64,000 nucleotides of DNA from an archaeon (GTDB taxonomy: Archaea > Nanobdellota > Nanobdellia > Pacearchaeales > GW2011-AR1): assembly GCA_018651605.1 (NCBI GenBank), contig JABIDS010000013.1, positions 64,717 to 128,716 of the forward strand, written 5' to 3'. The position numbers and the translations under genes are program-made. This document shows positions 8,683-60,333 of this stretch, piece after piece. The notes under the pieces are model-generated. The model ran no database searches. It was not told where the DNA came from and worked only from the letters and a program-made list of their open reading frames with translations. Each line of letters begins with the position of its first letter. The first letter of the stretch is position 1.

Positions 8683-8900
8683 TTCTTAAATTTCATAACG
8701 CAAAGCTTTAAATTATCTTAATTTCTATGTTTTTATAAGCCATACCCTTGGCATGACCTTTTCAAGGCCTCCATCGCACTCAGAAAATTTTTGAAATTTT
8801 CTGATTCTTCGATTCTAAAGAATCTTCAGATAATGTTATTGCATGACTATTCTATTATCGATGGATTTATAAAACAGATTTGCTATGCAAATCTGAATAA

Positions 8901-8981
8901 GCCACCATCGCATAATGGTATTGCACCGGCTTGCTAAGCCGGGCCCTTCGGGGCTCCCCGGTTCGATTCCGGGTGGTGGCG
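8901..8981 (+). tRNA. tRNA-Ser (GCT)
   Basis: Folds as GCCACCA TC GCA-TAATGGTAT-TGC A CCGGC TTGCTAA GCCGG, then a long variable arm GCCC-TTCG-GGGC TC, then CCCGG TTCGATT CCGGG TGGTGGC G. All stems are Watson-Crick, and the class II variable arm and G73 fit Ser. Confidence 0.9.
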
Positions 8982-9035: not shown

Positions 9036-9051
9036 CGATTCCGGGTGGTGG
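9036..9051. repeat. 16-nt direct duplicate of the tRNA-Ser T-arm/acceptor 3' end
   Basis: CGATTCCGGGTGGTGG occurs at 8964-8979 (inside the tRNA) and again at 9036-9051. The spacer contains a CTCAAC-TTCG-GTTGAG hairpin. Confidence 0.8.
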
Positions 9052-9114
9052 TGTATTTTAATTTATTAACAACTTTTATAAATATACTTTGCCTCTTTTA
9101 TTTAGGTAAAAAAG

Positions 9115-12062: not shown

Positions 12063-12091
12063 GAGAGTTATTTTATAATATTTTCCACCTC

Positions 12092-12276
12092 CCTATAAAC
12101 ATCATTTTATTTCATTGCCCGCCCTACTCGTTCAAGCATTATCTCCATCTTCCTATAAACATCATTTTATTTCATTGCCCGCCCACCCTCCCTGAATGAA
12201 TGATGTTTAATTCCCCTTCCTTTTTAATTGATAATGCTTAAACTCGCCCTCCCTGAATGAATGATGTTTAATTCCC
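12092..12276. repeat. composite nested palindrome built from two 33-nt and two 30-nt direct repeats
   Basis: DR1 CCTATAAACATCATTTTATTTCATTGCCCGCCC lies at 12092-12124 and 12152-12184. DR2 CCCTCCCTGAATGAATGATGTTTAATTCCC lies at 12186-12215 and 12247-12276. AAACATCATT pairs with AATGATGTTT, and CAAGCATTATC pairs with GATAATGCTTA. The central loop carries CCCGCCCACCCTCCC (12178-12192). Confidence 0.85.
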
Positions 12277-12396
12277 ATTATTTATCTTATTATTAATTTT
12301 TAAATATGATTTGATAATTTTAATCTCCGCAATCTTTAAATAACCTTATTGTATTTTTCTTTTATTGCAGTTCTTTTTTTGAATTGTCTGATAAAA

Positions 12397-14879: not shown

Positions 14880-15608
14880 ATGGTAAATTATTTTTTAGAA
14901 GTGTATGATAATCTTTCGTATTTTATAGGCTTGACTTTTGACATTGAAGTTTTATGGAATGTTGTTCCTTTGGTTATTGCTACGTTTTTGATTTTACTTT
15001 ATTTTGAAAGGTATAAGGAGGAGCAGGGGGGGTGGAATAGTTATTTGACTAATTCCTTGGTTTTGTTGTTTGTTTCAATAGCTCTTTTTAGATATATTCA
15101 TGGGCTTAGTGATTTGGGTGTTCAGAATTTTGTTGATTATTATCCTAAGACTATTGCAGTTGTGTTTCTTCTTTTGATTAGTTTGCTTTTGTTGAGATTT
15201 AATTTTGAGCATTTATTGCCTAAACAATTTGCTAAGTATCTTAGTTCTACTCTTACTGTGAATTTAACTGCTTATGGTATTATTTTGTTTGTCTATTCTG
15301 ATTTGATTTTTGGTTGGATTGTTATTGTATCTTTGATTGTTTTAATTTTGTTATTATCTGTTTTATTAAATGCCTTAAAGAAACCTTTTGGAGTTTTTTT
15401 TAATTTTGTTGAAAGAGAAAAGTTTCGTGAACAATTGAGAAATATAAGAGAATCTATTTTTCAAATTAAAGAGTTGAAGCATGAAGTTGTTTTTAGAGAG
15501 AAGAAATTAAAGGAAGTTAAGAAGAAAGAAATTAAGGAAGAAAAACAGGCTAAGAAAGCTAAGGAAATTGCAGATAAAGGTTTGAAGGAAACTAAAGGGA
15601 AAATATAA
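14880..15608 (+). CDS. polytopic membrane protein with a K/E-rich coiled-coil tail, hypothetical
   Basis: ORF track. TATA-like ATTTATAAAT at about 14839 and GAGGT 5 nt before the ATG. Confidence 0.6.
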   Translation: MVNYFLEVYDNLSYFIGLTFDIEVLWNVVPLVIATFLILLYFERYKEEQGGWNSYLTNSLVLLFVSIALFRYIHGLSDLGVQNFVDYYPKTIAVVFLLLISLLLLRFNFEHLLPKQFAKYLSSTLTVNLTAYGIILFVYSDLIFGWIVIVSLIVLILLLSVLLNALKKPFGVFFNFVEREKFREQLRNIRESIFQIKELKHEVVFREKKLKEVKKKEIKEEKQAKKAKEIADKGLKETKGKI

Positions 15609-16474
15609 TGGGGTTTGCTAAGAATGATGTTGAAAAGATTTTAAGTGAGTTAGATGGTGGTGTGAAAATGGTTGCGCTTGTTGCTCCGAGTTTTATTGTT
15701 GATTTTGGTTATCCTTCTTTGTTGAATCGTTTGAGTGGTTTGGGTTTTGATAAGGCTGTTGAATTGACTTTTGGTGCTAAGATGATTAATAGAGAGTATC
15801 ATAAGAAATTGAAGAATTCTAAAGAATTGGTTATTGCTTCGCCTTGTCCTGGAATTGTTCAGACTATTTTGAATAAATATCCTCAATATAAAAAGAATTT
15901 GATTTTGGTTGATAGTCCTTTGGTTGCGACTGCAAAGATTTGTCGGAAATATTATCCTGAGCATAAGTTTGTTTTTATTTCTCCTTGTGATTTTAAGAAG
16001 ATGGAAGTTGAGGCATGCAAGTATATTGATTATGTTATTGATTATGATCAGTTGAGGGCGTTGTTTGTTAAGAGGCATGTTAAGGCAAAGTGTTCTAAGG
16101 GCTGTTTGTTGTTTGATAAATTTTATAATGATTATACTAAGATTTATCCTTTGTCTGGAGGGCTTGGGAAAACTGCGCATTTGAAGGGAGTTATTAAGGA
16201 AGAGGAGGTTTTGGTTGTTGATGGTATTAAGAATGTTATGAAGTTTTTGAATAAGCCTGACCCTAAGATTCGGTTTTTGGATGTTTTATTTTGCGAAGGT
16301 GGGTGTATTGGTGGGCCTCATGTTTCTAAGAAGTTGTCTTTGGAGAAAAGGCGTAAGAAAGTGTTTAAGTATTTGGAGAAGTCTAGGGATGAGGATATTC
16401 CTGAAGATAGAAAGGGGTTGATTGATAAGGCTAAGGGGTTGAAGTTTGGAGGGAAGGTTTGGTTTGATAAATAG
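15608..16474 (+). CDS. [FeFe]-hydrogenase H-cluster-domain-like protein, minimal form (288 aa, no accessory Fe-S domains)
   Basis: Variants of all three H-domain motifs are present: IASPCPG (L1; TSCCP with the first Cys replaced by Pro), ISPCDFKKME (L2; PCxxKxxE) and FCEGGCIGGP (L3; CxxGCxxGG). The start overlaps the stop of the upstream gene. Confidence 0.65.
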   Translation: MGFAKNDVEKILSELDGGVKMVALVAPSFIVDFGYPSLLNRLSGLGFDKAVELTFGAKMINREYHKKLKNSKELVIASPCPGIVQTILNKYPQYKKNLILVDSPLVATAKICRKYYPEHKFVFISPCDFKKMEVEACKYIDYVIDYDQLRALFVKRHVKAKCSKGCLLFDKFYNDYTKIYPLSGGLGKTAHLKGVIKEEEVLVVDGIKNVMKFLNKPDPKIRFLDVLFCEGGCIGGPHVSKKLSLEKRRKKVFKYLEKSRDEDIPEDRKGLIDKAKGLKFGGKVWFDK

Positions 16475-16600
16475 GTTCGCCTTTGGCTCACAGCTTATTT
16501 TATTAAAATTTTGGGAAGCTTCGCTAACCCAAAATTTTGAATTTCTTGATAGTGTGTAAAATTTAGAAGTTATGAAGATGAGTTTTCTTTTGATTTGTTG
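16475..16600 (+). repeat. intergenic GC-hairpin/tail repeat, copy A
   Basis: Contains GTTCGCCTTTGGCTCACAGCTTATTTTAT, a hairpin AAAATTTTGGG (16505-16515) / CCCAAAATTTT (16528-16538), then TTTCTTGATAGTGTGTAAAATTTAGAAGTTATGAAGATGAGTTTTCTTTTG. Confidence 0.8.
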
Positions 16601-16639
16601 TTTTAATTGTTGGTAGATTTGATTTCCGAAGAATTAATT

Positions 16640-17512
16640 TCAATACAAAATAACTAAAACCGCACCTACAATCATTATTGCTGTTGCAATTGTTCTTTTT
16701 AAGAGATTGTGTTCTTGGAAAAGTTTTCCGCCTATGATTACTGCGAAGAAGACGCTGATTCTTTTAATCGATAAGACAAGTGCGACTGGAGCGATTTTAA
16801 CTGCTTGGATTTGTGTATATCTGTAAATGATTGTTATTAGTGAAAGGAGGAGGATTATTTTGAATGAGTTTTTTATTGGAGATTTTATTTGTTTTGTTTT
16901 TCCTGAAAGGATTAGTATTGTAAGGAAGATTATGGCAAGGAAAAGATGTTGAAATCCCATGAAGGCGTTTATAGGTAGTTTGAAATTTTTTAGAAGGGCT
17001 TTGTCTAGGATTGATGTTATTGTAAATAGGAGGAGTGCTAGAATTATGTATTTGTTTCCTTTTGTTTTTGTTAGATTTTTGAAAGGATCTAAGAATTTTT
17101 GATTTTGTTTTAGTTGGAGAATGTATGTTCCTGATAAAAGTAGGAGCATTCCAAGGATTTCTAGATTTGTTAATGATTCGTTTAGAAAAATTAATGCTCC
17201 GATTGCTACAAGTCCTGGAGTGAGGACTAAGAGAGGGAGGGCTTTACTGAGTTCTAGATTTTTTATCCCTAGCATTACGCAAAGAAAAGCTAATGTCCCT
17301 AAGATTGATTTGATGAATAATGTTATTAGAGCAGCAGTTGTTATTGCTGAGAAGGTTATGAAGAAAAAGAAAGGGATTGCTATTATTAGGTTTAGGATTG
17401 CAAAGAGTGTTGAGAATGCTAATGCTTTTTCTTTGAATAGGATTTTTTTCTCTAAGATTGCTGCAGATGCTGAGAATAAAGCGGAAGTTAATGCTAGTAA
17501 GTACCAAGTCAT
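16640..17512 (-). CDS. EamA/DMT-family transporter
   Basis: 290 aa with about 10 TM segments in a two-fold repeat. The pattern is typical of EamA. Confidence 0.7.
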   Translation of the reverse strand: MTWYLLALTSALFSASAAILEKKILFKEKALAFSTLFAILNLIIAIPFFFFITFSAITTAALITLFIKSILGTLAFLCVMLGIKNLELSKALPLLVLTPGLVAIGALIFLNESLTNLEILGMLLLLSGTYILQLKQNQKFLDPFKNLTKTKGNKYIILALLLFTITSILDKALLKNFKLPINAFMGFQHLFLAIIFLTILILSGKTKQIKSPIKNSFKIILLLSLITIIYRYTQIQAVKIAPVALVLSIKRISVFFAVIIGGKLFQEHNLLKRTIATAIMIVGAVLVILY

Positions 17513-17513
17513 T

Positions 17514-17744
17514 TTAGTTAATTAAAGAAATGATTATATGGATTATGATTGCTATAATGCTTAGGAAGACTATTGGTTTGTGGTATGTGCATAGAGATAT
17601 TGCTTCGCATGATTTGTCTTTGCATTCTTCTTTGTTGTCGCAGTCGCTGAGTTTTTTTGTTGCCCAAGGCATTGCTAAGCAAGTTGCGAAGTTGAAGAAA
17701 AGTAAAATTGCAGCTATCCATCCAGTTATAATTGTAATGTTCAT
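17514..17744 (-). CDS. small membrane protein with a Cys-rich loop, hypothetical
   Basis: ORF track. Tightly packed with its neighbours: a 1-nt gap and a 4-nt overlap. Confidence 0.5.
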   Translation of the reverse strand: MNITIITGWIAAILLFFNFATCLAMPWATKKLSDCDNKEECKDKSCEAISLCTYHKPIVFLSIIAIIIHIIISLIN

Positions 17745-20627: not shown

Positions 20628-20699
20628 TTTTATTTTTATTTTTTTTATTTTTTTGTGTTTATGTTGGTGGTGTGAGGTGGATTTATGTTATTTTATTTT

Positions 20700-20800
20700 T
20701 ATATTGCGTCGCTTTCGTTGGCGACTTCGTCAGAGTTCTTCACTGTTGATTCTTGAAATTATGTAATTCTATCTTTTTTTGAAGATGAGTTTTTCTTTGG
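20700..20800 (+). repeat. intergenic GC-hairpin/tail repeat, copy B
   Basis: Sequence: ATATTGCGTCGCTTTCGTTGGCGACTTCGTCAGAG...CACTGTTGATTCTTGAAATT...GAAGATGAGTTTTTCTTTGG. Confidence 0.75.
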
Positions 20801-20898
20801 TTGTTGAGAGGGATTTGGGTTGAAGGTTTGGGTTGAAGGTTTTTGAATTGTTTAGGATAAATCCATAGCTTTTTAAGGTTGGACATCTTTAGTATTTT

Positions 20899-31213: not shown

Positions 31214-31334
31214 GCTTTGTTGAAAATCTTTTCTCCCTCCTTTTTAAAATTTATTTTATTATGGTTGCACCCGCCCAGCCCACCCTTAAATGAATAAATT
31301 TTAGCCACACCCTTTTAGACTTTTTCAACAAAGC
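31214..31334. repeat. long two-tier hairpin with a C-rich four-tract loop
   Basis: The outer stem pairs GCTTTGTTGAAAA (31214-31226) with TTTTCAACAAAGC (31322-31334). The inner stem pairs AAAATTTATT (31246-31255) with AATAAATTTT (31293-31302). The loop carries CCCGCCCAGCCCACCC (31270-31285). Confidence 0.8.
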
Positions 31335-32167: not shown

Positions 32168-32956
32168 ATGTTATACTTAATAGGATTAGGATTGAATTTG
32201 AAAGGAATATCTTTGGAAGGTATTGAAGCTATTCGTAAATGTAAGAAGGTTTATTTGGAGAGTTATACTGTTGAGTTTCCTTATTCAACTGCTGAATTGG
32301 AGAAGGTTTTAGGTGTGAAGGTTTGTGTTTTAGGTCGCGAGGATGTAGAGGGTGATAGATTGGTTGAGGAGTCTCGAAAGAGTGATGTTGGGCTTTTGGT
32401 TTATGGTTGTCCTTTGTTTGCTACGACTCATATGAGTTTGATTGAGGGTTGTGGTAAGGTGGAGATTATTTATGCTGCGAGTGTTTTTGATGGAATTGCG
32501 TCTTCAGGTTTGCAGTTGTATAAGTTTGGTAAAGTTTCGTCTATGCCTAAATGGGCTAAGGGTTTTGAGCCTGTTAGTTTTTTGGATTATGTTAAAGAGA
32601 ATTTAAGTATTGGGGCGCATAGTTTGATTTTGGTTGATATTGGATTGAAGTTTAGTGATGCTGTTTCTCAGTTGGTTGATGGTTGTTCTAAGTCTGGGGT
32701 TGATTTAAAGAATGTGGTGGTTTGTTCAAGGGTGGGGAGTGAGGAAGGGAAGATTTTTTATGTTGATGAGTTGAAGGATAAAGGGTTGAAGGGTTTAGGA
32801 GGGAAGAGGGTGAAGGGGTTGAAGGGTTTAGAGGGGAAGAAGGTTAAGGGGTTGAAGGGTTTAGAGGGGAAGAAGGTTAAGGCTCCGTTTTGTTTTGTGA
32901 TTCCTGGTAAGATGCATTTTATGGAGGAAGAGGTTTTGAAGTCTTGGAGGGTGTGA
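32168..32956 (+). CDS. dph5: diphthine synthase
   Basis: Contains MLYLIGLGL..., GCPLFATTH, LYKFG, SLILVDIGL and FVIPGKMHFMEEE, matching archaeal Dph5 end to end except for the repeat insertion. Confidence 0.85.
   Translation: MLYLIGLGLNLKGISLEGIEAIRKCKKVYLESYTVEFPYSTAELEKVLGVKVCVLGREDVEGDRLVEESRKSDVGLLVYGCPLFATTHMSLIEGCGKVEIIYAASVFDGIASSGLQLYKFGKVSSMPKWAKGFEPVSFLDYVKENLSIGAHSLILVDIGLKFSDAVSQLVDGCSKSGVDLKNVVVCSRVGSEEGKIFYVDELKDKGLKGLGGKRVKGLKGLEGKKVKGLKGLEGKKVKAPFCFVIPGKMHFMEEEVLKSWRV
32783..32881 (+). repeat. 3 x 33-nt in-frame tandem repeat inside dph5
   Basis: Units lie at 32783-32815, 32816-32848 and 32849-32881; the last two are identical. They encode GLKGLGGKRVK, GLKGLEGKKVK and GLKGLEGKKVK. 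Confidence 0.9.
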
Positions 32957-32965
32957 GGAGGTTTA

Positions 32966-33060
32966 ATATTGCGTCGCTCTCGCGGACGGCTTTCGCCAGT
33001 CCGCTCCGCTGTTGAATCTTGAAATCTATTTTATTTTTTTAGATGAGTTTTTTTTTGGTT
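32966..33060 (+). repeat. intergenic GC-hairpin/tail repeat, copy C
   Basis: ATATTGCGTCGCTCTCGCGGACGGCTTTCGCCAGTCCGCTCCGCTGTTGAATCTTGAAATC...AGATGAGTTTTTTTTTGG, with a GCGGAC/GTCCGC stem. Confidence 0.8.
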
Positions 33061-33127
33061 TGTTAGTGATTTTTTATTTAGATGAATGTTTCTTAGAGAT
33101 TAAAATTTTGAGAATTACTAAGACTTT

Positions 33128-33170
33128 GGGCAGAAAGGGAAAGGTGACAACCGGCTTTCTGCGGAGGTGG
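33128..33170 (-). repeat. CCACC-box hairpin, inverted copy
   Basis: The reverse complement reads CCACCTCCGCAGAAAGCCGGTTGTCACCTTTCCCTTTCTGCCC. The stem pairs GCAGAAAG (33130-33137) with CTTTCTGC (33155-33162). Confidence 0.7.
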
Positions 33171-33259
33171 AAATGTTTGAATTTATGTTTTAAATTACTA
33201 CCTATCTTTGGTGAAATTTTTTGATATAAATTTATAAATGATTGAGGAGTTTTTATTTT

Positions 33260-34990: not shown

Positions 34991-35130
34991 ATTTACGTGA
35001 GCTTTGCTCACGCTTATTTTATATCGCTTTCGCGCCCGACTTTGTCATGAAAGGTTCGTCAGATTCTCTGACGAAAGCGCCGCCGCTTCGCTATTAATAT
35101 TGAAATCTTGTAAATTTTAGAAGTTATGTT
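34991..35130 (+). repeat. intergenic GC-hairpin/tail repeat, copy D (composite)
   Basis: The 5' module is ATTTACGTGAGCTTTGCTCACGCTTATTTTAT, with a perfect CGTGAGC-TTT-GCTCACG hairpin. A GC-rich core follows, then ATTGAAATCTTGTAAATTTTAGAAGTTATGTTTGAGGG. It lies between two minus-strand genes. Confidence 0.8.
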
Positions 35131-35184
35131 TGAGGGATTGGTTTGTTATGAGAATTTTATTTTTTCAAATGGGTTTTCTTTTCT

Positions 35185-35466
35185 CTAAAATTTTCCTTGA
35201 TATCCCATTACAAGTTCCCTATTTGTAACAAAATCAAAAAATGAAGGATCTGTTTTAGGATTATAGGGTTTTCCTATTTTTCTATATGCTGTTTCTCCTT
35301 CTTCTTGAGTAATTGTACCATCTCTATTTAAATCTATAACTGTTTTTGTAGAAATATATTGTCCACCTTCTATGATTAATGGAGATACACCTAATGTTAC
35401 TAATGAAGAAATAAATAGGTTTTTAAGTAATCCTGATTTTTTATGTGAAGAATCTTTAGTTTCCAT
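35185..35466 (-). CDS. small membrane-anchored protein with an EF-hand-like loop
   Basis: DLNRDGTITQEE fits the DxNxDGxIxxxE calcium-loop pattern. Has an N-terminal TM segment. Confidence 0.5.
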   Translation of the reverse strand: METKDSSHKKSGLLKNLFISSLVTLGVSPLIIEGGQYISTKTVIDLNRDGTITQEEGETAYRKIGKPYNPKTDPSFFDFVTNRELVMGYQGKF

Positions 35467-38482: not shown

Positions 38483-38525
38483 GTATTTATTAGGTGATTG
38501 GAGTTTATAAGTTTTTTTGAATTTT

Positions 38526-38625
38526 CACCACCTGCGAAAAGCCGTCTGTCGACTTTCCCTTTTCGCCCCGTGCAGTTTTGAAAAGTTGTTAGAGAATTAT
38601 TTTATGAAGATGAGTAGATTGGTTG
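38526..38625 (+). repeat. CCACC-box hairpin plus tail repeat, copy H
   Basis: CCACCACCT, then stem GCGAAAAG (38534-38541) / CTTTTCGC (38559-38566), then GCAGTTTTGAAAAGTTG...ATGAAGATGAGTAG. It lies between two minus-strand genes. Confidence 0.75.
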
Positions 38626-38645
38626 TTATGAGTAATTAGAATTAA

Positions 38646-48186: not shown

Positions 48187-49728
48187 ATGCCAGAAAAACA
48201 AAAAGATAAACCGGATATGCAGAAACTTGTGGAATCTCTTTCGCCTAATGAGAGAAGAATTGTTGGTTTTTTGGAAGTTGGGGATTTGGATAAACTGCGA
48301 GATGAGAGTGGTTTGGATAAGACATCTCTTTTGCGGGCTTTGGAGTTTTTATCTAATAAAGGAATTTTAACTTTGAGAAGTAAGGAGGAGAAGGTTGTTG
48401 TTTTGAGTATTAATGGGTTGAATTATAAAAGAGATGGTTTGCCTGAGAGAAGGCTTGGAGGAGTTGTTGTTGAGAAAAATTCTTTATCTTTAATGGATGC
48501 TAAGAAAGAGTCTGGATTGAGTGATAATGAGTTTAAGGTTGCTCTTGGAGCTTTGAAGAAAAGGGCGTTGATTAATATTGTTAATGGAAATATTGTTTTG
48601 GTTGGTGGGAAAGATGTTTTTGTTGAGAAGACTTTGGATGAGAAGTTTTTGGAGTTGTTGCCTAAAAAGTTTAGTGAGTTGGAGCCTGAGGAGAAGTTTT
48701 CTTTTGATAATTTGAAGTCTCGGAAGAATATTGTTGAGATTGAGAATAAGAAGATTGTTGAGTTTGATTTGACTGATTTGGGTAAGGAATTGGTTAAAGT
48801 TGATTTGACTTCTTTAAAAAATATGATTGAGAGTGTTACTCCTGGATTGATTAAGAGTGGGAGTTGGAAAGGTAAGAAGTTTCGGAGGTATGATATTACT
48901 TCAGATGTTCCGAAGATTTCTGGGGGTAAGAGGCATTTTGTGAATCAGGCGACTGATTATGCAAAGAGGGTTTGGTTGGATATGGGTTTTAAGGAGATGA
49001 GTGGTTCTTTGATTCAGTCTGGGTTTTGGAATTTTGATGCTTTGTTTACTGCACAGGATCATCCGGTTCGTGAGATGCAGGATACTTTTTTTATAAATGG
49101 TGAGGCTGAGTTGCCTGCTTCTGGAGTTGTTGAAAAGGTTAAGAAGGCGCATGAGGGGGGGATTGATGGTTCAAAAGGTTGGCAGTCTTCTTGGTCTGAG
49201 GATGATGCTAAGAAGGTTTTATTGAGGACACATACAACTTGTTTGTCTGTTCAGACTTTGAAAAAGATTGCTGAGAAAAAGGAGTTTCCTGCTAAGTATT
49301 TTGCTTTGGGTAAATGTTTTAGAAATGAGACTGTTGATTGGAGTCATGGGTTTGAGTTTAATCAGACCGAGGGAATTGTTGTTGATGAGAATGCGAATTT
49401 TCGGCAGTTGCTTGGTTATTTGAAAGAGTTTTTTAAGAAAATGGGTTATGAAGAGATTCGGATTCGTCCTGCGTATTTTCCATACACAGAGCCGTCGCTT
49501 GAGATAGATGTTTTTCATCCTGTTCGTAAGGAATGGGTGGAGTTGGGTGGTGCTGGGATGTTTAGGCCAGAAGTTACGATTCCAATGTTTGGGAGGCATA
49601 TTCCTGTTTTAGCTTGGGGTCCTGGTTTTGATAGAATTATTATGGAGTTTTTTAAGGTAGAGGATTTGAGGGATATGTATAAAAATGATTTGAATGCTCT
49701 TCGTGAGAAGAAGGTGTGGAGAAAATGA
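48187..49728 (+). CDS. pheS: phenylalanine--tRNA ligase alpha subunit (archaeal type)
   Basis: Has N-terminal winged-helix repeats and a class II core: HPVREMQDTFF, LLRTHTT, GKCFRNE, FNQTEG and GAGMFRPEV. Confidence 0.9.
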   Translation: MPEKQKDKPDMQKLVESLSPNERRIVGFLEVGDLDKLRDESGLDKTSLLRALEFLSNKGILTLRSKEEKVVVLSINGLNYKRDGLPERRLGGVVVEKNSLSLMDAKKESGLSDNEFKVALGALKKRALINIVNGNIVLVGGKDVFVEKTLDEKFLELLPKKFSELEPEEKFSFDNLKSRKNIVEIENKKIVEFDLTDLGKELVKVDLTSLKNMIESVTPGLIKSGSWKGKKFRRYDITSDVPKISGGKRHFVNQATDYAKRVWLDMGFKEMSGSLIQSGFWNFDALFTAQDHPVREMQDTFFINGEAELPASGVVEKVKKAHEGGIDGSKGWQSSWSEDDAKKVLLRTHTTCLSVQTLKKIAEKKEFPAKYFALGKCFRNETVDWSHGFEFNQTEGIVVDENANFRQLLGYLKEFFKKMGYEEIRIRPAYFPYTEPSLEIDVFHPVRKEWVELGGAGMFRPEVTIPMFGRHIPVLAWGPGFDRIIMEFFKVEDLRDMYKNDLNALREKKVWRK

Positions 49729-51488
49729 CAATAATAACATTTGATAGAAAAGAATTGGAAAAGAAAATTGGAAAGATAGATGAGAAGATGGAGGAAAGGA
49801 TAAGTATGTTTGGGACTGTAGTTGAGGATTTGACTGAGGATGAAGTTAGTGTTGAGGTTTTTCCGAATCGTCCTGATTTGCTTTCGTTTGGTGGTTTTGT
49901 TCGTGGTTTGCTTGGGTTTTTTGGGAAGGGTAAGGGTTTGAAAAATTATAATGTGAATAAACCTTTGGAGAATTATAATGTTGTTATTGATAAATCTGTT
50001 AAATCTGTTCGTCCATTTACAGCATGTGCTATTGTTAAGAATTTGAAGTTGGATGATGCTCGGATTAAGGAGATGATTGATATTCAGGAAAAGTTGCATG
50101 GTTCTTATGGGCGGAATCGTAAGAAGTTGGCGATTGGGATTTATCCTTTGGAAGAGATTAAGTTGCCGATTAAGTTTTTGGCTCGTAAACCTGAGGAGAT
50201 TAAGTTTCAGCCGTTGGAGTTTCCTCGTGCGATTAATGGTAGGCAGATTTTAAGTCAACATCCTGCAGGAAGGGAGTATGGAGATTTGTTGAAAGGTGCT
50301 GAGGTTTTTCCAATTTTTGAAGATGCGAATGGAGAGATTTTAAGTATGCCGCCTATTATTAATTCTGAGAAAACTGGGAAGGTTGGTTTTGAGACAAAGG
50401 ATGTTTTTATTGAGTGTTCTGGTTTTAATTTAGATTATTTGAAAAAGACTTTGAATATGATTGTTTGTGCTTTGGCTGATATGGGTGGAGAGATTTATGA
50501 GATGGAGATTGTAGATAAGAGGAAGTGGGTTTCTCCTGATTTGTCTAGTGATAAGATGGAGTTTTCTTTAGATGATTTGAATAAGACTTTGGGTTTGGAG
50601 TTGAGTGTTAAAGAGGTTAAGGGTTATTTGGGTAAAATGGGGATTGGATATGGGGAGGGGGTTGCTTTGGTTCCTTGTTATAGGACTGATATTTTGCATG
50701 AGATTGATTTGAGTGAAGAGGTTGCTATTGCTTATGGTTATGAGAATTTTGAGGCAGAGATTCCTGAGATTTCAACTATTGGTTGTGAGGATAAGGTTGC
50801 TGTTTTGAAAAGGAGAGTTGATGAGATTTTGGCTGGATTGGGTTTGTTAGAGGTTTCTAGTTATCATTTGTCTACTAAAGATGTTCAGTTTAAGAAGATT
50901 TGTAAAAAGGGTTTTTTGGATGAGGTAATCGAAGTTTTGGATTCTAAGACTGAGAATAATATTTTGAGGACTTCGTTGTTTGCTAATAGTATGAAAATTT
51001 TGAGTGAGAATTCTGATGCTTCGTATCCGCAGAAGATTTTTGAATTGGGGAAGGTTTTTGGGAAATGTGAAGGTGGTTCTGGGGGTGAGAGTGGTGATGG
51101 TTCGCAATTACAACGCCCAATACCCCACCCACCCACCCGTATTGGGGGCGTTGAAATTGCTACTAGTGGTGTTGGAGGTATTGTTGAGAAAGAGAGATTG
51201 TGTATTTCGTTGTGTGGTGAGGGAATGAATTTTACAGAGTTGAAACAGGGTTTGGATTATTTGATGAGGATGTTGGGGGTGGAGTATTCTTTGGAAGAGG
51301 TGGAGAATGAGTCGTTTATTGTGGGGCGGTGTGGGAGTGTTGTGGTTGGTTCTAAAGGTGAAGAAGGCGTTGGTGAGAAGAGGGTTGTGGGTGTTATGGG
51401 GGAGGTGGGGTTGAGTGTGTTGAAAAATAATAAGATTAAGATGCCGGTGGTTAGTTTGGAGTTGGATTTGAGTTGTTTTGTAGAATAA
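49716..51488 (+). CDS. pheT: phenylalanine--tRNA ligase beta subunit (archaeal type) with a Gly/Pro-rich insertion
   Basis: Contains VEVFPNRPDLLS, the B3/4 and B5 domain patterns, and IFELGKVF. It overlaps pheS by 13 nt. The insertion lies at about 51063-51190. Confidence 0.9.
   Translation: MEKMTIITFDRKELEKKIGKIDEKMEERISMFGTVVEDLTEDEVSVEVFPNRPDLLSFGGFVRGLLGFFGKGKGLKNYNVNKPLENYNVVIDKSVKSVRPFTACAIVKNLKLDDARIKEMIDIQEKLHGSYGRNRKKLAIGIYPLEEIKLPIKFLARKPEEIKFQPLEFPRAINGRQILSQHPAGREYGDLLKGAEVFPIFEDANGEILSMPPIINSEKTGKVGFETKDVFIECSGFNLDYLKKTLNMIVCALADMGGEIYEMEIVDKRKWVSPDLSSDKMEFSLDDLNKTLGLELSVKEVKGYLGKMGIGYGEGVALVPCYRTDILHEIDLSEEVAIAYGYENFEAEIPEISTIGCEDKVAVLKRRVDEILAGLGLLEVSSYHLSTKDVQFKKICKKGFLDEVIEVLDSKTENNILRTSLFANSMKILSENSDASYPQKIFELGKVFGKCEGGSGGESGDGSQLQRPIPHPPTRIGGVEIATSGVGGIVEKERLCISLCGEGMNFTELKQGLDYLMRMLGVEYSLEEVENESFIVGRCGSVVVGSKGEEGVGEKRVVGVMGEVGLSVLKNNKIKMPVVSLELDLSCFVE
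51116..51146. repeat. hairpin with a (CCCA)3CCC loop inside the pheT coding sequence
   Basis: The stem pairs CCCAATAC (51116-51123) with GTATTGGG (51139-51146). The loop is CCCACCCACCCACCC (51124-51138). In frame it is translated as ...RPIPHPPTRIGG... Confidence 0.8.
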
Positions 51489-51522: not shown

Positions 51523-51738
51523 ATGACTGGAAAATTTCGTTATGAAGAGATGAAAAATGCACCCGAGGCCTTAAGGGAATTAGGTATTAAACCAGTATTT
51601 GTTCCTAGGCAAGATGGTTATAGGGAGCATTATGCTTTCTTAGGTATTGAGAGTGATTCTGAAGTGTATAGTTGTGGAGATTTAATGCAATTAGTTGGAG
51701 AAGGTGAAAGAAGAATTTCTGAATCTCTTAGGAATTAG
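51523..51738 (+). CDS. hypothetical protein
   Basis: ORF track frame 51502-51738. ATG at 51523. Confidence 0.45.
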   Translation: MTGKFRYEEMKNAPEALRELGIKPVFVPRQDGYREHYAFLGIESDSEVYSCGDLMQLVGEGERRISESLRN

Positions 51739-51822
51739 TATTGTTGCGTCGCTCTCGCGCCCGGACAAGTCCAGGGTGCTCCGCTGTGGATTCTTGAAAT
51801 TGTGTAAAATTAGAAGTTATGT
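51739..51822 (+). repeat. intergenic GC-hairpin/tail repeat, copy E
   Basis: Sequence: TATTGTTGCGTCGCTCTCGCGCCCGGACAAGTCCAGGGTGCTCCGCTGTGGATTCTTGAAATTGTGTAAAATTAGAAGTTATG. Confidence 0.8.
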
Positions 51823-51888
51823 TTTATAGTAATGATTAATCAAAAGATTTATAAATAGATAATTAATATTTATTTTGTAAGGATTAAA

Positions 51889-52930: not shown

Positions 52931-53028
52931 AAGATTGTTAAGTTAGGGAGGTATTTAAATTTGGTGATTGGTGATGAACAAACTTTAAATAATCTTGATT
53001 GTTTATTATTGTATTCTTAGGTGTTGAG

Positions 53029-53931: not shown

Positions 53932-54103
53932 ATGAGGGTGAAAATAAAGGGGTTTGGTTAAGTTGAGATTAATCGGACGGTTGTTGGGTAGTGTTAATAA
54001 TTTCTAATAAAAATAAAACATCACACTCTCTTTTTTATAAAAAGAATTCATCATCAAAAAAGTTAAAAAAAGGATAAAAAAAATAAAAAAAATAAAATTA
54101 CAA

Positions 54104-57192: not shown

Positions 57193-57966
57193 ATGTCAAA
57201 GATAAAATTCGGGCCAGCTGGAATAGGACCAACAAAAAGTGCTGTGCAAGTTCTTGAGGAGTATTGTGGATTGGGTTTTAAGGCAGCTGAGATAGCTTTT
57301 ACTTATAATGTTTATATTAAGGATAAGGAAGATATTCGTTTGATAAGGGAGAGTGCTAAGAAATTGGATATTGATTTGTCGATTCATGCTCCGTATTTTA
57401 TTAATTTGAATTCAAAGGAAAAGGTTAAGGTGGAGATGAGCAAGAAGAGGATTCTTAAGTGTTGTGAGATTGGGGAGGAGTTGGGTGCTACGAAAGTTGT
57501 TTTTCATCCTGGTTTTTATTCAGGTATGGAACCTGAGGAAACTTTTCAAAATGTTAAGGCGCAGGTTATTGATATGCAAGAGATTTTGAAGCTCAAAGGT
57601 TATAAGATAAAACTTGCTCCAGAAATAATGGGGAAAGTGAATGTTTTTGGTTCTCCTGAACAGATTTCAAGATTGGTTAAGGAAACTGGTTGTGGATTTA
57701 CAATTGATTTTGCTCATATTTTGGCTAGAGAAAAGTCTGTTGATTATGAAAAGTTGAAGAAGTTGTTTCCTCAGAAGAATTGGCATTGTCATTTTTCAGG
57801 AATTGAGTATGGTGAGAAAGGTGAGAAGAAACATTTGAAGACTTCTGTTAGTGGGTGGAGAGAGTTGTTTAGGGGTTTGCCTGGTGGGAAGAATATTACA
57901 ATTATTAATGAAAGTCCTGATATGATTAATGATTGTGCTGAGGGGTTGAGGTTGTTTGGGGGGTGA
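57193..57966 (+). CDS. AP endonuclease family 2 / xylose-isomerase-like TIM-barrel protein (endonuclease IV-like)
   Basis: Contains IHAPYFINL, VVFHPG, IDFAHI and HCHFSGIEYGEKGEKKH, a pattern of metal-binding His residues. Confidence 0.6.
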   Translation: MSKIKFGPAGIGPTKSAVQVLEEYCGLGFKAAEIAFTYNVYIKDKEDIRLIRESAKKLDIDLSIHAPYFINLNSKEKVKVEMSKKRILKCCEIGEELGATKVVFHPGFYSGMEPEETFQNVKAQVIDMQEILKLKGYKIKLAPEIMGKVNVFGSPEQISRLVKETGCGFTIDFAHILAREKSVDYEKLKKLFPQKNWHCHFSGIEYGEKGEKKHLKTSVSGWRELFRGLPGGKNITIINESPDMINDCAEGLRLFGG

Positions 57967-58063
57967 TGGAGGGTCGGGGTTGTTTGGTGGGTGATTGAGG
58001 GTTGGGGTTGTGGAGGGAGTGAAGATATTGTGGGTTGTTTAGGGAGTTGTTGAAGGGTGGGTG

Positions 58064-58190
58064 AATTTACGTTCGCTTTGCTCACGCTTATTTTATGGAA
58101 AGTCGAATGGCTTCACCAATCCGACTTTCTAATTTTTCTTGAAATCTTTTAAATTTTAAACTTTATGGGAAGTTTTCTTTTTTTATGATT
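58064..58190 (+). repeat. intergenic GC-hairpin/tail repeat, copy F
   Basis: AATTTACGTTCGCTTTGCTCACGCTTATTTTATG, then hairpin GAAAGTCG (58098-58105) / CGACTTTC (58122-58129) with loop AATGGCTTCACCAATC, then TAATTTTTCTTGAAATCTTTTAAATTTTAAACTTTATGGGAAGTTTTCTTT. Confidence 0.8.
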
Positions 58191-58252
58191 TATTGTAATT
58201 TAAGAGTAGTAAATGTAGAAAGATTTATAAACCCTTAATTTGTTTAAATTGT

Positions 58253-59384: not shown

Positions 59385-60063
59385 ATTTTGATAAGAGGTA
59401 AGTTAATATAAAAATCAAGATAGCTGTGATTAATAGTGCTAGTATAATTGCCCAGTTGTTTGGATTTGTTTTATCTGTTGTCTCTTTATTTTGGATTGTT
59501 ATTTTTTTTATTGATTCTTCTATGAATGTGTAATCTATTGATTGGTTTATGTTTTCTTGGATTTGTGGTTCTTGTTCTTGGTTATAGGGGTAGTCTCTCC
59601 ATTTTCCTGTTTCTTTTGATTTGCATTTTCCTTTTTTGCAACCATATTCACATTCTTTGACTAATTCTTCTTGAGTTACTTTTTCTGAAAAGCAATCTTT
59701 GTCTGCACATCCTTTGTTGTAACAGATTTTGTTTTTGTAGATATTGTTCTGATGGCAGTAATTTTCTGAGTATTCTTCACAATAACTTTCTCCACAATCA
59801 AAGATTAAGAAGGGATCTGTGTAAGTGGAACAATACGAGGTGGTTTGTCCTGGGTTGTTGCAAGTGTGGAATAAAAATATTTGGAAGACATTGTTGTTTT
59901 CACAATAGTTGTCGTCTCCTGCGCATGCGTCTATTCCACAATCTGTGTTCATGTAACATTCTATTTCTTCTTCTGTTGAGCTAATGGTTAGAATTAGTAT
60001 TAGGATTGTAAATATTGCTAAGAGAATTAATGTTTGTTTTTTGTAAGTTTTGTTGGGGCTCAT
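59377..60063 (-). CDS. Cys-rich surface protein with N- and C-terminal TM segments, hypothetical
   Basis: ORF track. About 26 Cys in the ~130-aa ectodomain. Confidence 0.55.
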   Translation of the reverse strand: MSPNKTYKKQTLILLAIFTILILILTISSTEEEIECYMNTDCGIDACAGDDNYCENNNVFQIFLFHTCNNPGQTTSYCSTYTDPFLIFDCGESYCEEYSENYCHQNNIYKNKICYNKGCADKDCFSEKVTQEELVKECEYGCKKGKCKSKETGKWRDYPYNQEQEPQIQENINQSIDYTFIEESIKKITIQNKETTDKTNPNNWAIILALLITAILIFILTYLLSKSN

Positions 60064-60145: not shown

Positions 60146-60312
60146 TACGTTCGTTTTGCTCACTGCTTATTTTATGAAAAGTTGAATGGCTTCGCCAATC
60201 CAACTTTTAAATTTTTCTTGATAGTGTGAATATTTTAGTAGTTATGTTTGAGGTTTTGGTTTTGAAATCTTTTTAGGAATTAGGTTTTTGGAGATGAGTT
60301 TTCTTTGGTGGT
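60146..60312 (+). repeat. intergenic GC-hairpin/tail repeat, copy G
   Basis: ACGTTCGTTTTGCTCACTGCTTATTTTATG, then hairpin AAAAGTTG (60177-60184) / CAACTTTT (60201-60208) with loop AATGGCTTCGCCAATC, then AAATTTTTCTTGATAGTGTGAATATTTTAGTAGTTATGTTTGAGG...GAGATGAGTTTTCTTTGG. Confidence 0.8.
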
Positions 60313-60333
60313 TATTAGGGGATTAGTTTGTTG

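What the first reader, a model, noticed from the sequence alone, without database searches (positions are those of the whole stretch)
58064..58190. Dispersed intergenic repeat family (at least 9 copies in 64 kb): GC-rich hairpin plus conserved tail, all in one orientation
Copies lie at 1377-1470, 16475-16600, 20700-20800, 32966-33060, 34991-35130, 38526-38625, 51739-51822, 58064-58190 and 60146-60312.

They share a modular layout:
- An optional 5' module, ACGT(G/T)(A/C)GCTTTGCTCACGCTTATTTTAT.
- A GC-rich hairpin whose stem differs between copies but stays complementary. Examples: GAAAGTCG/CGACTTTC versus AAAAGTTG/CAACTTTT, with nearly the same loop AATGGCTTC(A/G)CCAATC; also AAAATTTTGGG/CCCAAAATTTT and GCGGAC/GTCCGC.
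- A (T)TCTTGAAAT box.
- A TAAAATTTAGAAGTTATG box.
- A GATGAGTTTTYTTTGG or TTTGAGGNTTGGTTT tail.

Every copy is on the + strand, including the two that lie between minus-strand genes (34991 and 38526). So the orientation follows something other than the neighbouring genes, such as independent transcription, the direction of replication, or directional insertion. In a genome this AT-rich, GC-rich islands with compensatory stem changes are the classic signature of structured RNAs. The modular, partly truncated copies also fit a MITE/REP-like element.
Basis: seen in the sequence. Interest (0 to 1): 0.75.

Follow-up and report, generated by a model that had tools for sequence, protein, structure and literature searches.

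The report
Hairpin repeat elements parked behind genes
A tiny DPANN (Pacearchaeota/Woesearchaeota-like) archaeon and its two closest relatives carry a lineage-specific family of about 100-300-base modular hairpin repeats, most likely small non-autonomous mobile elements, that usually sit just after gene ends; this is a new example of a familiar kind of genomic repeat, not a new RNA gene.

Summary
All nine listed copies are real and far beyond chance, and the modular layout is correct. The stems covary: most variable pairs change on both sides.

The claim that every copy is on the + strand is only partly true.
- One hairpin module, which I call C-type, also occurs on the minus strand at 33112-33170.
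- Across the window and two related species, A/B-type copies lie 13:2 on the G/T-rich strand.
- C-type copies lie 4:4.
- One intact A-type copy sits on the C-rich strand, directly behind a gene encoded on that strand.

Evidence bearing on what the elements are:
- No Rfam family matches any copy.
- No promoter lies at the genome's usual distance from any copy.
- Stems contain almost no G-T pairs.
- Seven of 15 A/B copies start 0-9 nt after a co-oriented stop codon. The four that abut the stop directly all use the rare TAG.
- One copy in a relative has perfect 14-nt terminal inverted repeats.
- Copies are present or absent at syntenic sites, and they mark an inversion, a segmental duplication and gene replacements.

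Best reading: a clade-specific MITE/REP-like family, possibly also serving as 3'-end modules. No transposase was found and no target-site duplication is visible. Interest is moderate.

The parts
1377..1487 (+). C-type copy. Hairpin core 1377-1438 (CCACC..., outer stem TTCGGAAAG/CTTTCCGAA, inner GTGC-TTT-GCAC), then TCTTGAAAT and a degenerate tail (GAGAAGGAGGTTTTCTTAATGGTTATAGG).
   Evidence: CM R1 78.8 bits; nhmmer C profile E = 1.3e-33; hairpin z = -4.1.
16475..16615 (+). A-type copy that starts immediately after the TAG stop of the Fe_hyd_lg_C-like gene (15608-16474). It lies between convergent genes; the EamA gene 16640-17512 is on the minus strand. Layout: 5' module GTTCGCCTTTGGCTCACAGCTTATTTTAT, an 11-bp hairpin AAAATTTTGGG/CCCAAAATTTT, then boxes T1, T2 and T4.
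   Evidence: CM R2 98.5 bits; nhmmer E = 2e-26; hairpin z = -5.2; gene context.
20686..20814 (+). B-type copy, that is, an A-type whose 5' module is largely deleted. It keeps a TTATTTTAT relic and TATATTGCGTCGCTTTCG, followed by a hairpin region, TCTTGAAAT and GAAGATGAGTTTTTCTTTGG. A 13-nt x2.2 G/T repeat follows at 20814-20842.
   Evidence: nhmmer B profile E = 3.6e-26; repeat pair D12; TRF.
32962..33071 (+). B-type copy starting 9 nt after the TGA stop of the TP_methylase gene. Hairpin GCGGAC-GGC-TTTC-GCC-A-GTCCGC, then T1 and T4-T5; the tail is tandemly duplicated with a 23-nt period.
   Evidence: nhmmer E = 7e-28; hairpin z = -3.8; TRF.
33112..33170 (-). Together with 32962-33071 it forms the same tail-to-tail A/B(+)...C(-) composite seen twice in L001 and once in L221. 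A decayed right end runs to about 33255.
   Evidence: CM R1 68 bits, E = 2e-14; first seen with nhmmer; composite alignment.
34995..35183 (+). A 5' module in its self-complementary form (CGTGAGC-TTT-GCTCACG), plus a long B-like hairpin region that includes the 9-bp stem TTCGTCAGA/TCTGACGAA, then ATTGAAAT, T2, an inserted TTTGAGG module and a T4-like box. It lies between two minus-strand genes: the PfkB start at 34910 and the end of a 93-aa gene at 35185.
   Evidence: nhmmer E = 2e-24; CM R2 22.5 and 15.2 bits; context.
38523..38644 (+). C-type copy with a full tail (GAAGATGAGTAGATTGGTTGTTATGAG). It lies between the minus-strand ribosomal protein genes S27e (start 38278) and S24e (end 38646).
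   Evidence: CM R1 81.3 bits; nhmmer E = 4e-31. The tail box GAAGATGAGTAGATTGGTTGTTA(T/G)GAGTA differs at 1 of 33 positions from a non-orthologous copy in species B.
51739..51830 (+). B-type copy starting immediately after the TAG stop of a 71-aa ORF. It is orthologous to L209 2141-2257 in species B. That copy keeps the full 5' module; relative to it the window copy has a 25-nt deletion between TCGCT repeats.
   Evidence: nhmmer E = 5e-23; alignment to species B; sequences.
58064..58214 (+). The flagged A-type copy. Layout: 5' module (AATT)TACGTTCGCTTTGCTCACGCTTATTTTAT, hairpin GGAAAGTCG...CGACTTTC, TCTTGAAAT, and degenerate T2 and T4 boxes. The real promoter of the next gene (AAAGATTTATAAA) follows at about 58225.
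   Evidence: CM R2 99.9 bits; hairpin z = -4.6. Orthologue in species B is L221 9235-9335, about 88% identical over about 100 nt with unalignable flanks.
60147..60319 (+). A-type copy between two minus-strand genes (228-aa gene start at 60063, DUF2238 gene end at 60334). It carries an inserted TTTGAGG module between T2 and T4-T5. At the orthologous site species B has a C-type hairpin, with the flank and T4-T5 tail conserved.
   Evidence: CM R2 110.5 bits; context; orthologous site.

Best explanation
The copies belong to a clade-specific family of modular, hairpin-bearing, non-coding repeat elements of the MITE/REP kind.

**Anatomy (shown).**
- A unit has a roughly 28-nt 5' module (TTTAS|GTTCGC-TTY-GCTCAC-N-TTATTTTAT).
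- Next comes one of several interchangeable GC-rich hairpins, which I call A, B and C types.
- Then come the T1-T2 boxes (TTGAWA..GTAAAWTTTAGAAGTTATG).
- T4-T5 boxes often follow.
- Units occur alone, or tail-to-tail as A/B(+)...C(-) doublets with their 5' modules facing outward as inverted terminal repeats.

**How it works (inferred).**
- The elements spread and recombine within the genomes of this small clade without leaving target-site duplications.
- The hairpins act as single- or double-stranded DNA structures recognised by an enzyme encoded elsewhere. That enzyme was not found.
- Copies persist mainly where the 5' end lands at the extreme 3' end of a gene in the gene's own orientation. 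In the abutting cases the element's own TTTAG supplies the stop codon.
- In that position the hairpin plus the following T-runs probably serve as, or are tolerated as, a 3'-end or terminator module. This step is unproven.
- Because about two thirds of genes lie on the G/T-rich strand, this placement, plus relics left by rearrangements, yields the strong but not absolute strand bias.
- As dispersed repeats the elements also act as breakpoints for inversion, duplication and gene replacement.
For: **Organism and distribution.**
- The organism is a DPANN archaeon.
- The family is found only in the window, species B (PheRS-beta 81% identical; loci L209 and L221) and L001 (73%). It is absent from 79 other related loci.

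**Mobile-like features.**
- L001 15547-15813 has perfect 14-nt inverted termini GTTCGCTTCGCTCA/TGAGCGAAGCGAAC.
- L001b carries a nested 51-nt hairpin insertion.
- A roughly 640-nt unit, [C(+)-small gene-A(-)], is present in species B at a site that is empty in the window.
- A 1.36-kb block with two A copies follows the trypsin-like gene in species B only.
- Orthologous sites carry different hairpin modules.
- Density is about 10 copies per 64 kb. A published census reports a Woesearchaeal genome among the most MITE-dense archaea (PMC11602168).

**Hairpins are under constraint.**
- Covariation with only double changes.
- 233 Watson-Crick pairs against 9 G-T pairs.
- In the L001 duplicate, the flanking pseudo-gene lost 3 of 3 C and 5 of 20 A. 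The two element cores kept 66 of 67 and 72 of 74 positions.

**Placement at gene ends.**
- Seven of 15 A/B copies start 0-9 nt after a co-oriented stop codon.
- All four directly abutting copies use TAG, which accounts for 9 of 51 stops of + strand genes.

**Orientation.**
- A/B copies lie 13:2 and C copies 4:4 relative to the G/T-rich strand.
- The intact exception, L221 10780-10876, follows a gene encoded on the C-rich strand.
Against: - No transposase or recombinase was found in the window, or among the L001 and L209 ORFs tested and the gene calls listed for L221.
- No related autonomous element is known.
- The one filled-versus-empty comparison shows no target-site duplication.
- Clean inverted termini exist in only one copy.
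- L001b arose by segmental duplication that included 93 nt of the PheRS-beta gene, not by transposition.
- Window copies are only 76-79% alike. Yet orthologous copies are about 88% conserved between species whose flanking intergenic DNA is unalignable. That looks like purifying selection for a host function rather than selfish turnover.
- Three window copies sit on the + strand between minus-strand genes, and one of those sites is conserved between species.
- The terminator role is untested, and archaeal termination needs no hairpin.
Confidence: 0.6

Rival explanations
1. Host cis-acting 3'-end modules. The elements are not mobile now. They are conserved transcription-termination or mRNA-stabilising cassettes (hairpin plus oligo-T tracts) attached to gene ends, and recombination moves them together with genes.
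For: - The left end sits 0-9 nt after a co-oriented stop in 7 of 15 copies.
- T-runs follow the hairpins: AATTTTTCTTG, GAGTTTTTTTTTGG.
- Orthologous copies are about 88% conserved while flanks are unalignable.
- Element cores stayed unchanged while the adjacent pseudo-gene decayed.
- The only intact reverse copy follows a gene on that strand.
- The reverse copy that does not follow a gene's orientation (L209 4071-4166) has lost its hairpin.
Against: - Three window copies are antisense to both neighbouring genes, and one of those sites is conserved in species B.
- C-type hairpins are kept in both orientations.
- T5+ runs are common inside genes (5 per kb), so oligo-T is not a specific signal here.
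- Most genes lack the element.
- The family is absent from slightly more distant relatives that have the same genes.
Confidence: 0.2
2. Recombination sites of a cassette-type gene-exchange system, analogous to an integron. A site-specific recombinase would recognise the folded hairpin and 5' module, and small genes would be swapped in and out next to the elements.
For: - Non-homologous 71-aa and 75-aa ORFs occupy the same slot, between a conserved promoter plus ATG and the orthologous element.
- Species B has an element-ORF-element-ORF array that is absent from the window.
- A MazEF toxin-antitoxin pair lies between two direct copies in L001.
- The LemA/AP-endonuclease block is inverted between species and flanked by inverted copies whose 5' modules face the block.
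- Hairpin structure is conserved while sequence varies, and stems are Watson-Crick only, as expected for folded DNA.
- 5'-module variants look like arm exchange: X-TTT-Y, X-TTT-X', Y'-TTT-Y.
Against: - No integrase or recombinase gene was seen in about 105 kb of sequence from the clade.
- The termini (GTTCGC...GCGAAC) do not fit the attC R''/R' consensus RYYYAAC/GTTRRRY.
- Copies are dispersed among housekeeping genes rather than arrayed.
- The L001 duplicate includes gene sequence, which suggests homologous rather than site-specific recombination.
Confidence: 0.1
3. A family of independently transcribed small structured RNAs, co-oriented with replication or with the majority of genes.
For: - GC-rich islands in an AT-rich, C-depleted strand.
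- Significant hairpin stability and covariation.
- Strong strand bias of A/B copies, 13:2.
Against: - No Rfam hit, even with lax filters.
- No TATA box at the genome's standard distance of about 23 nt. The only TATA-like tract (TTATTTTAT) would start transcription inside the hairpin (and sequence inspection).
- No one-sided (G-U) stem variants among 127 pair cells.
- C-type copies are split 4:4 between strands.
- Hairpin modules are interchangeable at one site.
- Element ends coincide with stop codons.
Confidence: 0.07

Closest known systems
MITEs of prokaryotes, including archaeal MITEs. A census (PMC11602168) reports a Woesearchaeal genome among the most MITE-dense archaea.
   Same: - Short (about 100-300 nt), non-coding and multi-copy.
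- Intergenic and taxon-restricted.
- Inverted termini in the best-preserved copy.
- Filled and empty syntenic sites.
- Density of about 150 copies per Mb.
   Different: - No target-site duplication is visible.
- Inverted termini are intact in only one copy.
- No partner transposase or parent IS is known.
- Copies are mosaics of exchangeable hairpin modules.
- There is a strong orientation bias and a preference for abutting stop codons.
REP/BIME elements and REPIN doublets of bacteria (mobilised by RAYT), and IS200/IS605-derived palindrome-associated elements
   Same: - GC-rich imperfect palindromes just 3' of genes.
- Stems kept by compensatory change.
- Singlets, and inverted doublets that form the larger unit.
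- No target-site duplication.
- Possible action as DNA hairpins.
- Known side roles as terminators or mRNA stabilisers.
   Different: - The organism is an archaeon.
- The two arms of a doublet carry different hairpins.
- Long conserved non-palindromic modules are present (5' module, T1-T5).
- No RAYT/TnpA gene was seen.
- No conserved GTAG-type tetranucleotide is present.
Rickettsia palindromic elements (RPE) and Neisseria Correia elements
   Same: - Palindromic repeats in a reduced genome.
- They can lie at or inside gene ends and supply coding sequence or a stop codon.
- They are modular and lineage-specific.
- A second palindrome family in this window is inserted in frame inside the PheRS-beta gene.
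   Different: - There is no sequence relationship.
- Correia elements have a TA duplication and defined inverted repeats.
- RPEs are mostly found inside ORFs.
Integron attC sites, for example Vibrio cholerae repeats
   Same: - Units of about 60-130 nt with imperfect dyad symmetry at the 3' ends of ORFs.
- Mostly one orientation.
- Structure conserved more than sequence.
- Association with small accessory genes and toxin-antitoxin genes.
   Different: - No IntI gene.
- No R''/R' consensus.
- No contiguous cassette array.
- Neighbouring genes are largely housekeeping.

Membership tests
MITE (classical, DDE-transposase dependent) | Terminal inverted repeats | tested here: inconclusive
   Perfect 14-nt TIR in L001 15547-15813. 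Decayed traces occur in L001b and at window ~33237-33255. No right-hand repeat lies within 3 mismatches near any window A-type copy.
MITE (classical, DDE-transposase dependent) | Target-site duplication flanking the insertion | tested here: not met
   Comparison of the filled site (L209 ~3620-4190) with the empty site (window 52931-52998) shows no direct repeat at the junctions. L001a flanks (TTTAG / TATTTT) are not a clean duplication.
MITE (classical, DDE-transposase dependent) | Small, non-coding, multi-copy, with insertion polymorphism | tested here: met
   Ten copies in 64 kb, with 4 more in L001, 5 in L209 and 4 in L221. Copies are present or absent at syntenic sites. No conserved ORF lies within the elements (sequence inspection).
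MITE (classical, DDE-transposase dependent) | Related autonomous element with the same termini | not testable with these tools
   No transposase was found in the window, L001, L209 or L221. The viral-contig scan gave 0 hits.
REP/REPIN or IS200/IS605-derived palindromic element | Hairpins conserved in structure; no TIR or TSD needed; singlets and inverted doublets | tested here: met
   Covariation. Tail-to-tail A/B(+)...C(-) doublets occur in four places. No TSD.
REP/REPIN or IS200/IS605-derived palindromic element | Cognate HUH (RAYT/TnpA) gene in the genome; conserved cleavage tetranucleotide | not testable with these tools
   Only about 105 kb of the clade's genomes could be read, and none was seen there. 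The left end is preceded by TTTAC, TTTAG or TTTGC, which is suggestive only.
REP/REPIN or IS200/IS605-derived palindromic element | Orientation tied to the replication strand | tested here: inconclusive
   A/B copies lie 13:2 on the G/T-rich strand. One intact copy is on the C-rich strand and C-type copies are 4:4. No origin or terminus lies in the data, so replication direction itself is unknown.
Integron attC site | R''/R' boxes RYYYAAC...GTTRRRY, an IntI integrase and a cassette array | tested here: not met
   The termini are GTTCGC...GCGAAC, which do not fit the consensus. No integrase appears in the annotated ORFs. Copies are 2-18 kb apart among housekeeping genes.
Known structured RNA family (Rfam) | Match to a curated covariance model | tested here: not met
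   Gathering and E-value scans of the whole window hit only 3 tRNAs plus chance matches elsewhere. Lax scans of two copies found nothing meaningful.
Independent archaeal small-RNA gene | BRE/TATA promoter about 23 nt upstream of the RNA 5' end, as at this genome's genes and tRNAs | tested here: not met
   The genome's promoters are TTTATAAA-like with the motif starting about 29 nt before the ATG (roughly 22-24 nt between box and ATG). No such box lies upstream of the elements, and several begin at a stop codon.

The most novel reading that the evidence does not exclude
The elements are folded-DNA recombination sites of a previously unrecognised cassette-type gene-exchange system in DPANN archaea.

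- It would be functionally like an integron or ssDNA-hairpin transposon, but with its own site (X-TTT-Y core plus hairpin) and an unknown recombinase.
- It would swap small genes in behind resident genes and drive local inversions.
- The evidence does not exclude this. Gene replacements, an inverted block and toxin-antitoxin insertions are all bounded by the elements. Stems are strictly Watson-Crick. The 5' module shows variants that look like arm exchange.
Probability: 0.12. Interest if true: 0.8.

Novelty: new variant of a known kind. Interest (0 to 1): 0.45.

Why it matters
**If the main reading holds.** This would document an abundant, structurally unusual repeat family in very small DPANN genomes (about 150 copies per Mb).
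- The repeats mark the breakpoints of inversions, duplications and gene swaps between close species.
- In at least four cases they supply the stop codon of a resident gene.
- This is useful for annotating such MAGs: several 'ORFs' called across the elements are spurious.
- It is also useful for reading their micro-evolution.
- It gives a starting point for finding the enzyme that moves the elements.

**A practical marker of constraint.** The host genomes have an extreme strand-wide mutation bias. The + strand is 10% C, and C>T and A>G decay is seen directly in a pseudo-gene flank. Retained cytosines therefore flag constraint, and the elements show it.

**What it is not.** It is not a new class of RNA gene. 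Hairpin repeats behind genes are well known in bacteria.

Tried and rejected
1. **Metagenome DNA scan.** The degenerate AT-rich tail pattern TTGAWAN{4,8}AAWWTTN{0,2}AGWAGTTATG returned 120 loci. Those whose rows were visible in the truncated listing showed none of the other family motifs and look like chance matches. A pattern from the 5' module would have been better.

2. **Exact-motif counts in the 80 related loci.** These wrongly suggested the family was absent from L001. Reading L001's intergenic DNA and profile searches showed it is present.

3. **Tail as a promoter.** Rejected. The genome's promoters are TTTATAAA-like and lie about 23 nt before the ATG. The T2 box sits at no such distance from any conserved ORF.

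4. **Small ORF starting at ATGAGTTTT.** Rejected. A 1-nt length difference in the T-run shifts the frame between copies, and the peptides are 7-12 aa and unrelated (sequence inspection).

5. **Other RNA or repeat classes**, considered from memory of their consensus features: C/D box, H/ACA, CRISPR-like solitary repeat (hairpin plus ATTGAAAT) and split-tRNA signals. None fits. There are no C/D boxes or ACA, no arrays or cas genes, and there is no Rfam support.

6. **DGR target hairpins.** Rejected. No template or variable repeat pair is present.

7. **Whole-copy folding.** This gave no signal. Only the hairpins themselves stand out.

8. **Viral-contig scan for the 5' module.** 0 hits.

9. **Population contigs of the same strain** (L081, L082, L203, L212-L220). 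They are 99.8-100% identical to the window and show no polymorphism in the elements.
Full report
**Organism and background composition**

The window encodes archaeal housekeeping genes:
- PheRS alpha and beta, ribosomal proteins S24e and S27e, Spt4, RpoE and RNase P p30;
- an archaeal-type initiator tRNA.

The closest genomes are Pacearchaeota/Woesearchaeota MAGs, so this is a DPANN archaeon.

The window overlaps a 92.8-kb JGI contig. The S24e protein is also on record on a 129.6-kb contig and under an NCBI locus tag HOE04_.

The + strand has a very unusual composition: T 39%, A 28%, G 23%, C 10%.
- GC skew is +0.4 to +0.55 where genes are on the + strand.
- It is still about 0 to +0.1 where genes are on the minus strand.
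- There is therefore a strand-wide bias on top of a coding-strand bias.
- The closest relatives share it: L001 has skew +0.42 and L209 has G 21%, C 11%.

**The observation**

- Exact boxes occur only on the + strand.
- A box pattern matches 3 times against 0.00 expected.
- Repeat finding links the copies pairwise at 72-79% identity.
- Profile and covariance-model searches recover them at E = 1e-23 to 1e-35 and 68-110 bits.

I sort the copies by hairpin type.

| Type | Copies | Features |
|---|---|---|
| A | 16475, 58064, 60146 | Full 5' module and a simple two-tier hairpin |
| B | 20700, 32966, 51739 | Hairpin region framed by TCGCTYTCG...CTYCGCT; 5' module lost |
| A 5' module + B-like hairpin | 34991 | Combines both |
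| C | 1377, 38526 | CCACC..., outer stem, AGCCG, mini-hairpin, CTTTCCC, outer stem, CCCC |

The B type is an A type that lost 25 nt of the 5' module. The orthologue of 51739 in a sister species still has the module.

All types are followed by T1 (TCTTGAAAT or TTGATAG). They are usually followed by T2 (GTAAAATTTAGAAGTTATG), T4 (GAAGATGAGTTTTCTTTGG) and T5 (GGTTGTTATGAG).

**Hairpins**

- Whole copies fold no better than shuffles.
- The hairpins alone do, with z = -2.1 to -5.2.
- On six distinct A hairpins from three species, 86% of cells pair against 67% in shuffles. Eight of 14 pairs change on both sides. None of 500 shuffles reaches this.
- On six C hairpins, 98% pair and 5 of 8 outer-stem pairs change on both sides.
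- In both sets no pair varies on one side only.
- Across 20 folded hairpins there are 233 Watson-Crick pairs and 9 G-T pairs, mostly at helix ends.
- C>T is the dominant mutation on this strand, so G-T would be the commonest intermediate. Its absence suggests selection on a DNA hairpin or a very strict helix rather than on a typical RNA stem. This is an inference from a small sample.

**Orientation**

A filters-off scan of both strands finds A/B copies only on the + strand of the window. The C-type model, however, finds a tenth copy on the minus strand at 33112-33170 (68 bits). It lies just downstream of copy 32966.

The same tail-to-tail arrangement, A/B(+) then C(-), recurs twice in L001 and once in L221.

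**Relatives**

My first motif counts missed the family in relatives. Reading L001 (PheRS-alpha 79%, PheRS-beta 73% identical) showed two copies.

A closer species, which I call species B (PheRS-beta 81%; loci L209 and L221), has:
- five A/B copies;
- three C copies.

Nothing was found in 79 other related loci or in L207. The family is therefore confined to a narrow clade.

Tally relative to the G/T-rich strand:

| Type | Same strand | Opposite strand |
|---|---|---|
| A/B | 13 | 2 |
| C | 4 | 4 |

The two A/B exceptions are informative.
- L209 4071-4166 does not follow a gene's orientation, and its hairpin has decayed.
- L221 10780-10876 has an intact hairpin. It starts 5 nt after the stop of the AP-endonuclease gene. 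In that species the gene lies on the C-rich strand: the L221 + strand has C 23% and G 10%, and every gene there has negative skew.

**Placement at gene ends**

Seven of 15 A/B copies begin 0-9 nt after a co-oriented stop codon.

| Copy | Distance after stop | Stop codon |
|---|---|---|
| window 16475 | 0 nt | TAG |
| window 51739 | 0 nt | TAG |
| L001 15547 | 0 nt | TAG |
| L209 5156 | 0 nt | TAG |
| L221 10780 | 5 nt | TAA |
| L209 2141 | about 5-8 nt | TGA |
| window 32966 | 9 nt | TGA |

- All four directly abutting copies use TAG, although TAG ends only 9 of 51 + strand genes.
- The element's left end reads TTTAG, TTTAC or TTTGC before GTTCGC. The TAG therefore appears to belong to the element.
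- L001's PheRS-beta ends one codon earlier (...GFI*) than the window's (...CFVE*), as expected if the element replaced the last codon.

**Evidence for turnover and recombination**

1. L001 15547-15813 has perfect 14-nt inverted termini, 239 nt apart. They are the 5' modules of the two tail-to-tail units.
2. L001b carries a nested 51-nt insertion with the hairpin TCAGAGAATTAAAAATTCTCTGA. This hairpin also stands alone at window ~6365-6390.
3. Species B has a roughly 640-nt insert, C(+)...86-aa gene...A(-), between two genes that are 68 nt apart in the window. No target-site duplication is visible.
4. Species B has a 1.36-kb block, A-ORF80-A-ORF154-ORF85, after the trypsin-like gene. The window lacks it.
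5. At the site orthologous to 60146, species B has a C hairpin in place of the A unit, with the flank and T4-T5 conserved.
6. The LemA/AP-endonuclease block is inverted between the window and species B. In species B it is flanked by inverted A copies whose 5' modules face the block.
7. Between a conserved promoter plus ATG and the orthologous element, the window has a 71-aa ORF and species B an unrelated 75-aa ORF.
8. The two L001 copies flank a MazEF pair.

**Constraint**

L001b is a segmental duplicate that includes the last 93 nt of the PheRS-beta gene (87% identity).
- In the 65 aligned flank positions all 3 C became T, 5 of 20 A became G and 2 T became G.
- The adjacent 5' module plus hairpin kept 66 of 67 positions, including 15 C and 17 A.
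- The T5 plus C-hairpin block kept 72 of 74 positions.
- The cores are therefore either constrained or homogenised.

Between species:
- Copy 58064 and its orthologue are about 88% identical over about 100 nt, while the flanks cannot be aligned.
- The tail box GAAGATGAGTAGATTGGTTGTTA(T/G)GAGTA of copy 38526 differs at 1 of 33 positions from a non-orthologous copy in species B, although the stems differ by compensated changes.

**What the elements are not**

- No Rfam family matches.
- The genome's promoters are TTTATAAA-like boxes about 23 nt before the ATG, which implies leaderless mRNAs. The same spacing holds at tRNA-Ser. No such box precedes the elements.
- The internal TTATTTTAT tract would place a transcription start inside the hairpin.
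- The apparent ORF at ATGAGTTTT is not conserved in frame.
- No transposase or integrase is present in the ORFs examined.

**Interpretation**

The best-supported reading is a clade-specific, modular, hairpin-bearing repeat of the MITE/REP kind.
- It spreads and recombines without target duplications.
- It survives mainly when lodged at the 3' end of a co-oriented gene.
- It may double there as a terminator or 3'-end module.

The strand bias then follows largely from the excess of genes on the G/T-rich strand: 58 of 90 ORFs and 39.6 of 57.2 kb coding. Relics left by rearrangements add to it.

Status of each step:
- **Shown:** family membership, hairpin covariation, placement at stop codons, restriction to the clade, filled and empty sites, and association with rearrangements.
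- **Inferred:** the mobility mechanism, the DNA-level role of the hairpins and any terminator function.

Rival readings that remain open are a pure host 3'-end module, an integron-like recombination site and small-RNA genes.

A published census already lists a Woesearchaeal genome among the most MITE-dense archaea (PMC11602168). The general phenomenon is therefore not new, although this family and its architecture appear undescribed: literature searches found nothing specific.

Noticed in passing
window 1-64000; also L001, L209, L221: Extreme strand-wide compositional asymmetry. The + strand has C 10%, G 23% and T 39%. GC skew is +0.4 to +0.55 in + gene regions and still at least 0 in minus-gene regions. 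Intergenic DNA is almost free of C. The closest relatives share the bias but most other Pacearchaeota loci do not. C>T and A>G decay is seen directly in a pseudo-gene flank.
   Followed up: partly
window 51076-51178 (inside PheRS-beta ORF 49725-51488): An in-frame insertion of roughly 63-75 nt relative to L001 and species B. It contains a palindrome with a C-rich loop (CGCCCAATAC-CCCACCCACCCACCC-GTATTGGGGGCG) and encodes ...QRPIPHPPTRIGG... This resembles an RPE-like palindromic insertion in an essential gene.
   Followed up: partly
window 3038-3101, 12084-12290, 31261-31316, 51100-51160: A second repeat family, built on CCCACCC(N)CCCACCC tracts on the otherwise C-poor strand. This reads as G-quadruplex-like GGGTGGG runs on the minus strand. 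The tracts often form hairpin loops. At 12084-12184 there is a 60-nt tandem duplication.
   Followed up: no
window 53932-53995: Directly after the stop of the trypsin-like gene lies a decayed duplicate of that gene's last ~70 nt. Its final 20 nt (GAGATTAATCGGACGGTTGT) are identical to species B's real 3' end. The window's functional 3' end differs (GAGATTAACAAAACAGTGGT). The gene end appears to have been replaced.
   Followed up: partly
window 57943-58011, 32773-32882, 20814-20842: G/T-rich tandem repeats at or just after gene 3' ends, next to the elements. A 28-nt x2.5 repeat spans the AP-endonuclease stop. A 33-nt x3.3 repeat lies inside the TP_methylase 3' end. A 13-nt x2.2 repeat follows copy 20700.
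   Followed up: no
window 8760-8781 and 9036-9053, flanking tRNA-Ser 8901-8981: Partial duplicates of the tRNA-Ser 5' part (GGCCTCCATCGCAC) lie upstream, and of its 3' end (CGATTCCGGGTGGTGGTG) 55 nt downstream. This resembles att-site remnants of an integration at the tRNA gene.
   Followed up: no
window 6365-6390; L001 17866-17891: The same perfect hairpin, CAGAGAATT-AAAAA-ATTCTCTG, stands alone in a window intergenic region and is nested inside element copy L001b. It is a further small mobile-looking hairpin shared between the species.
   Followed up: partly
window 17121-17525 (+); L001 15712-15933; L209 3714-4082: ORFs that run across or opposite real features. The 134-aa + ORF, which was called as a gene on the same-strain ENA contig L203, lies opposite a genuine EamA transporter gene (16640-17512, minus strand). 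Two other ORFs start inside element tails: a 73-aa ORF from the mechanical ORF listing of L001, and a called 122-aa gene in L209.
   Followed up: yes
window 51523-51738 versus L209 1905-2132: Unrelated small ORFs of 71 aa and 75 aa, with no Pfam match, occupy the same slot downstream of PheRS-beta in two species. Both sit behind a conserved leaderless promoter plus ATG and ahead of an orthologous repeat element.
   Followed up: partly
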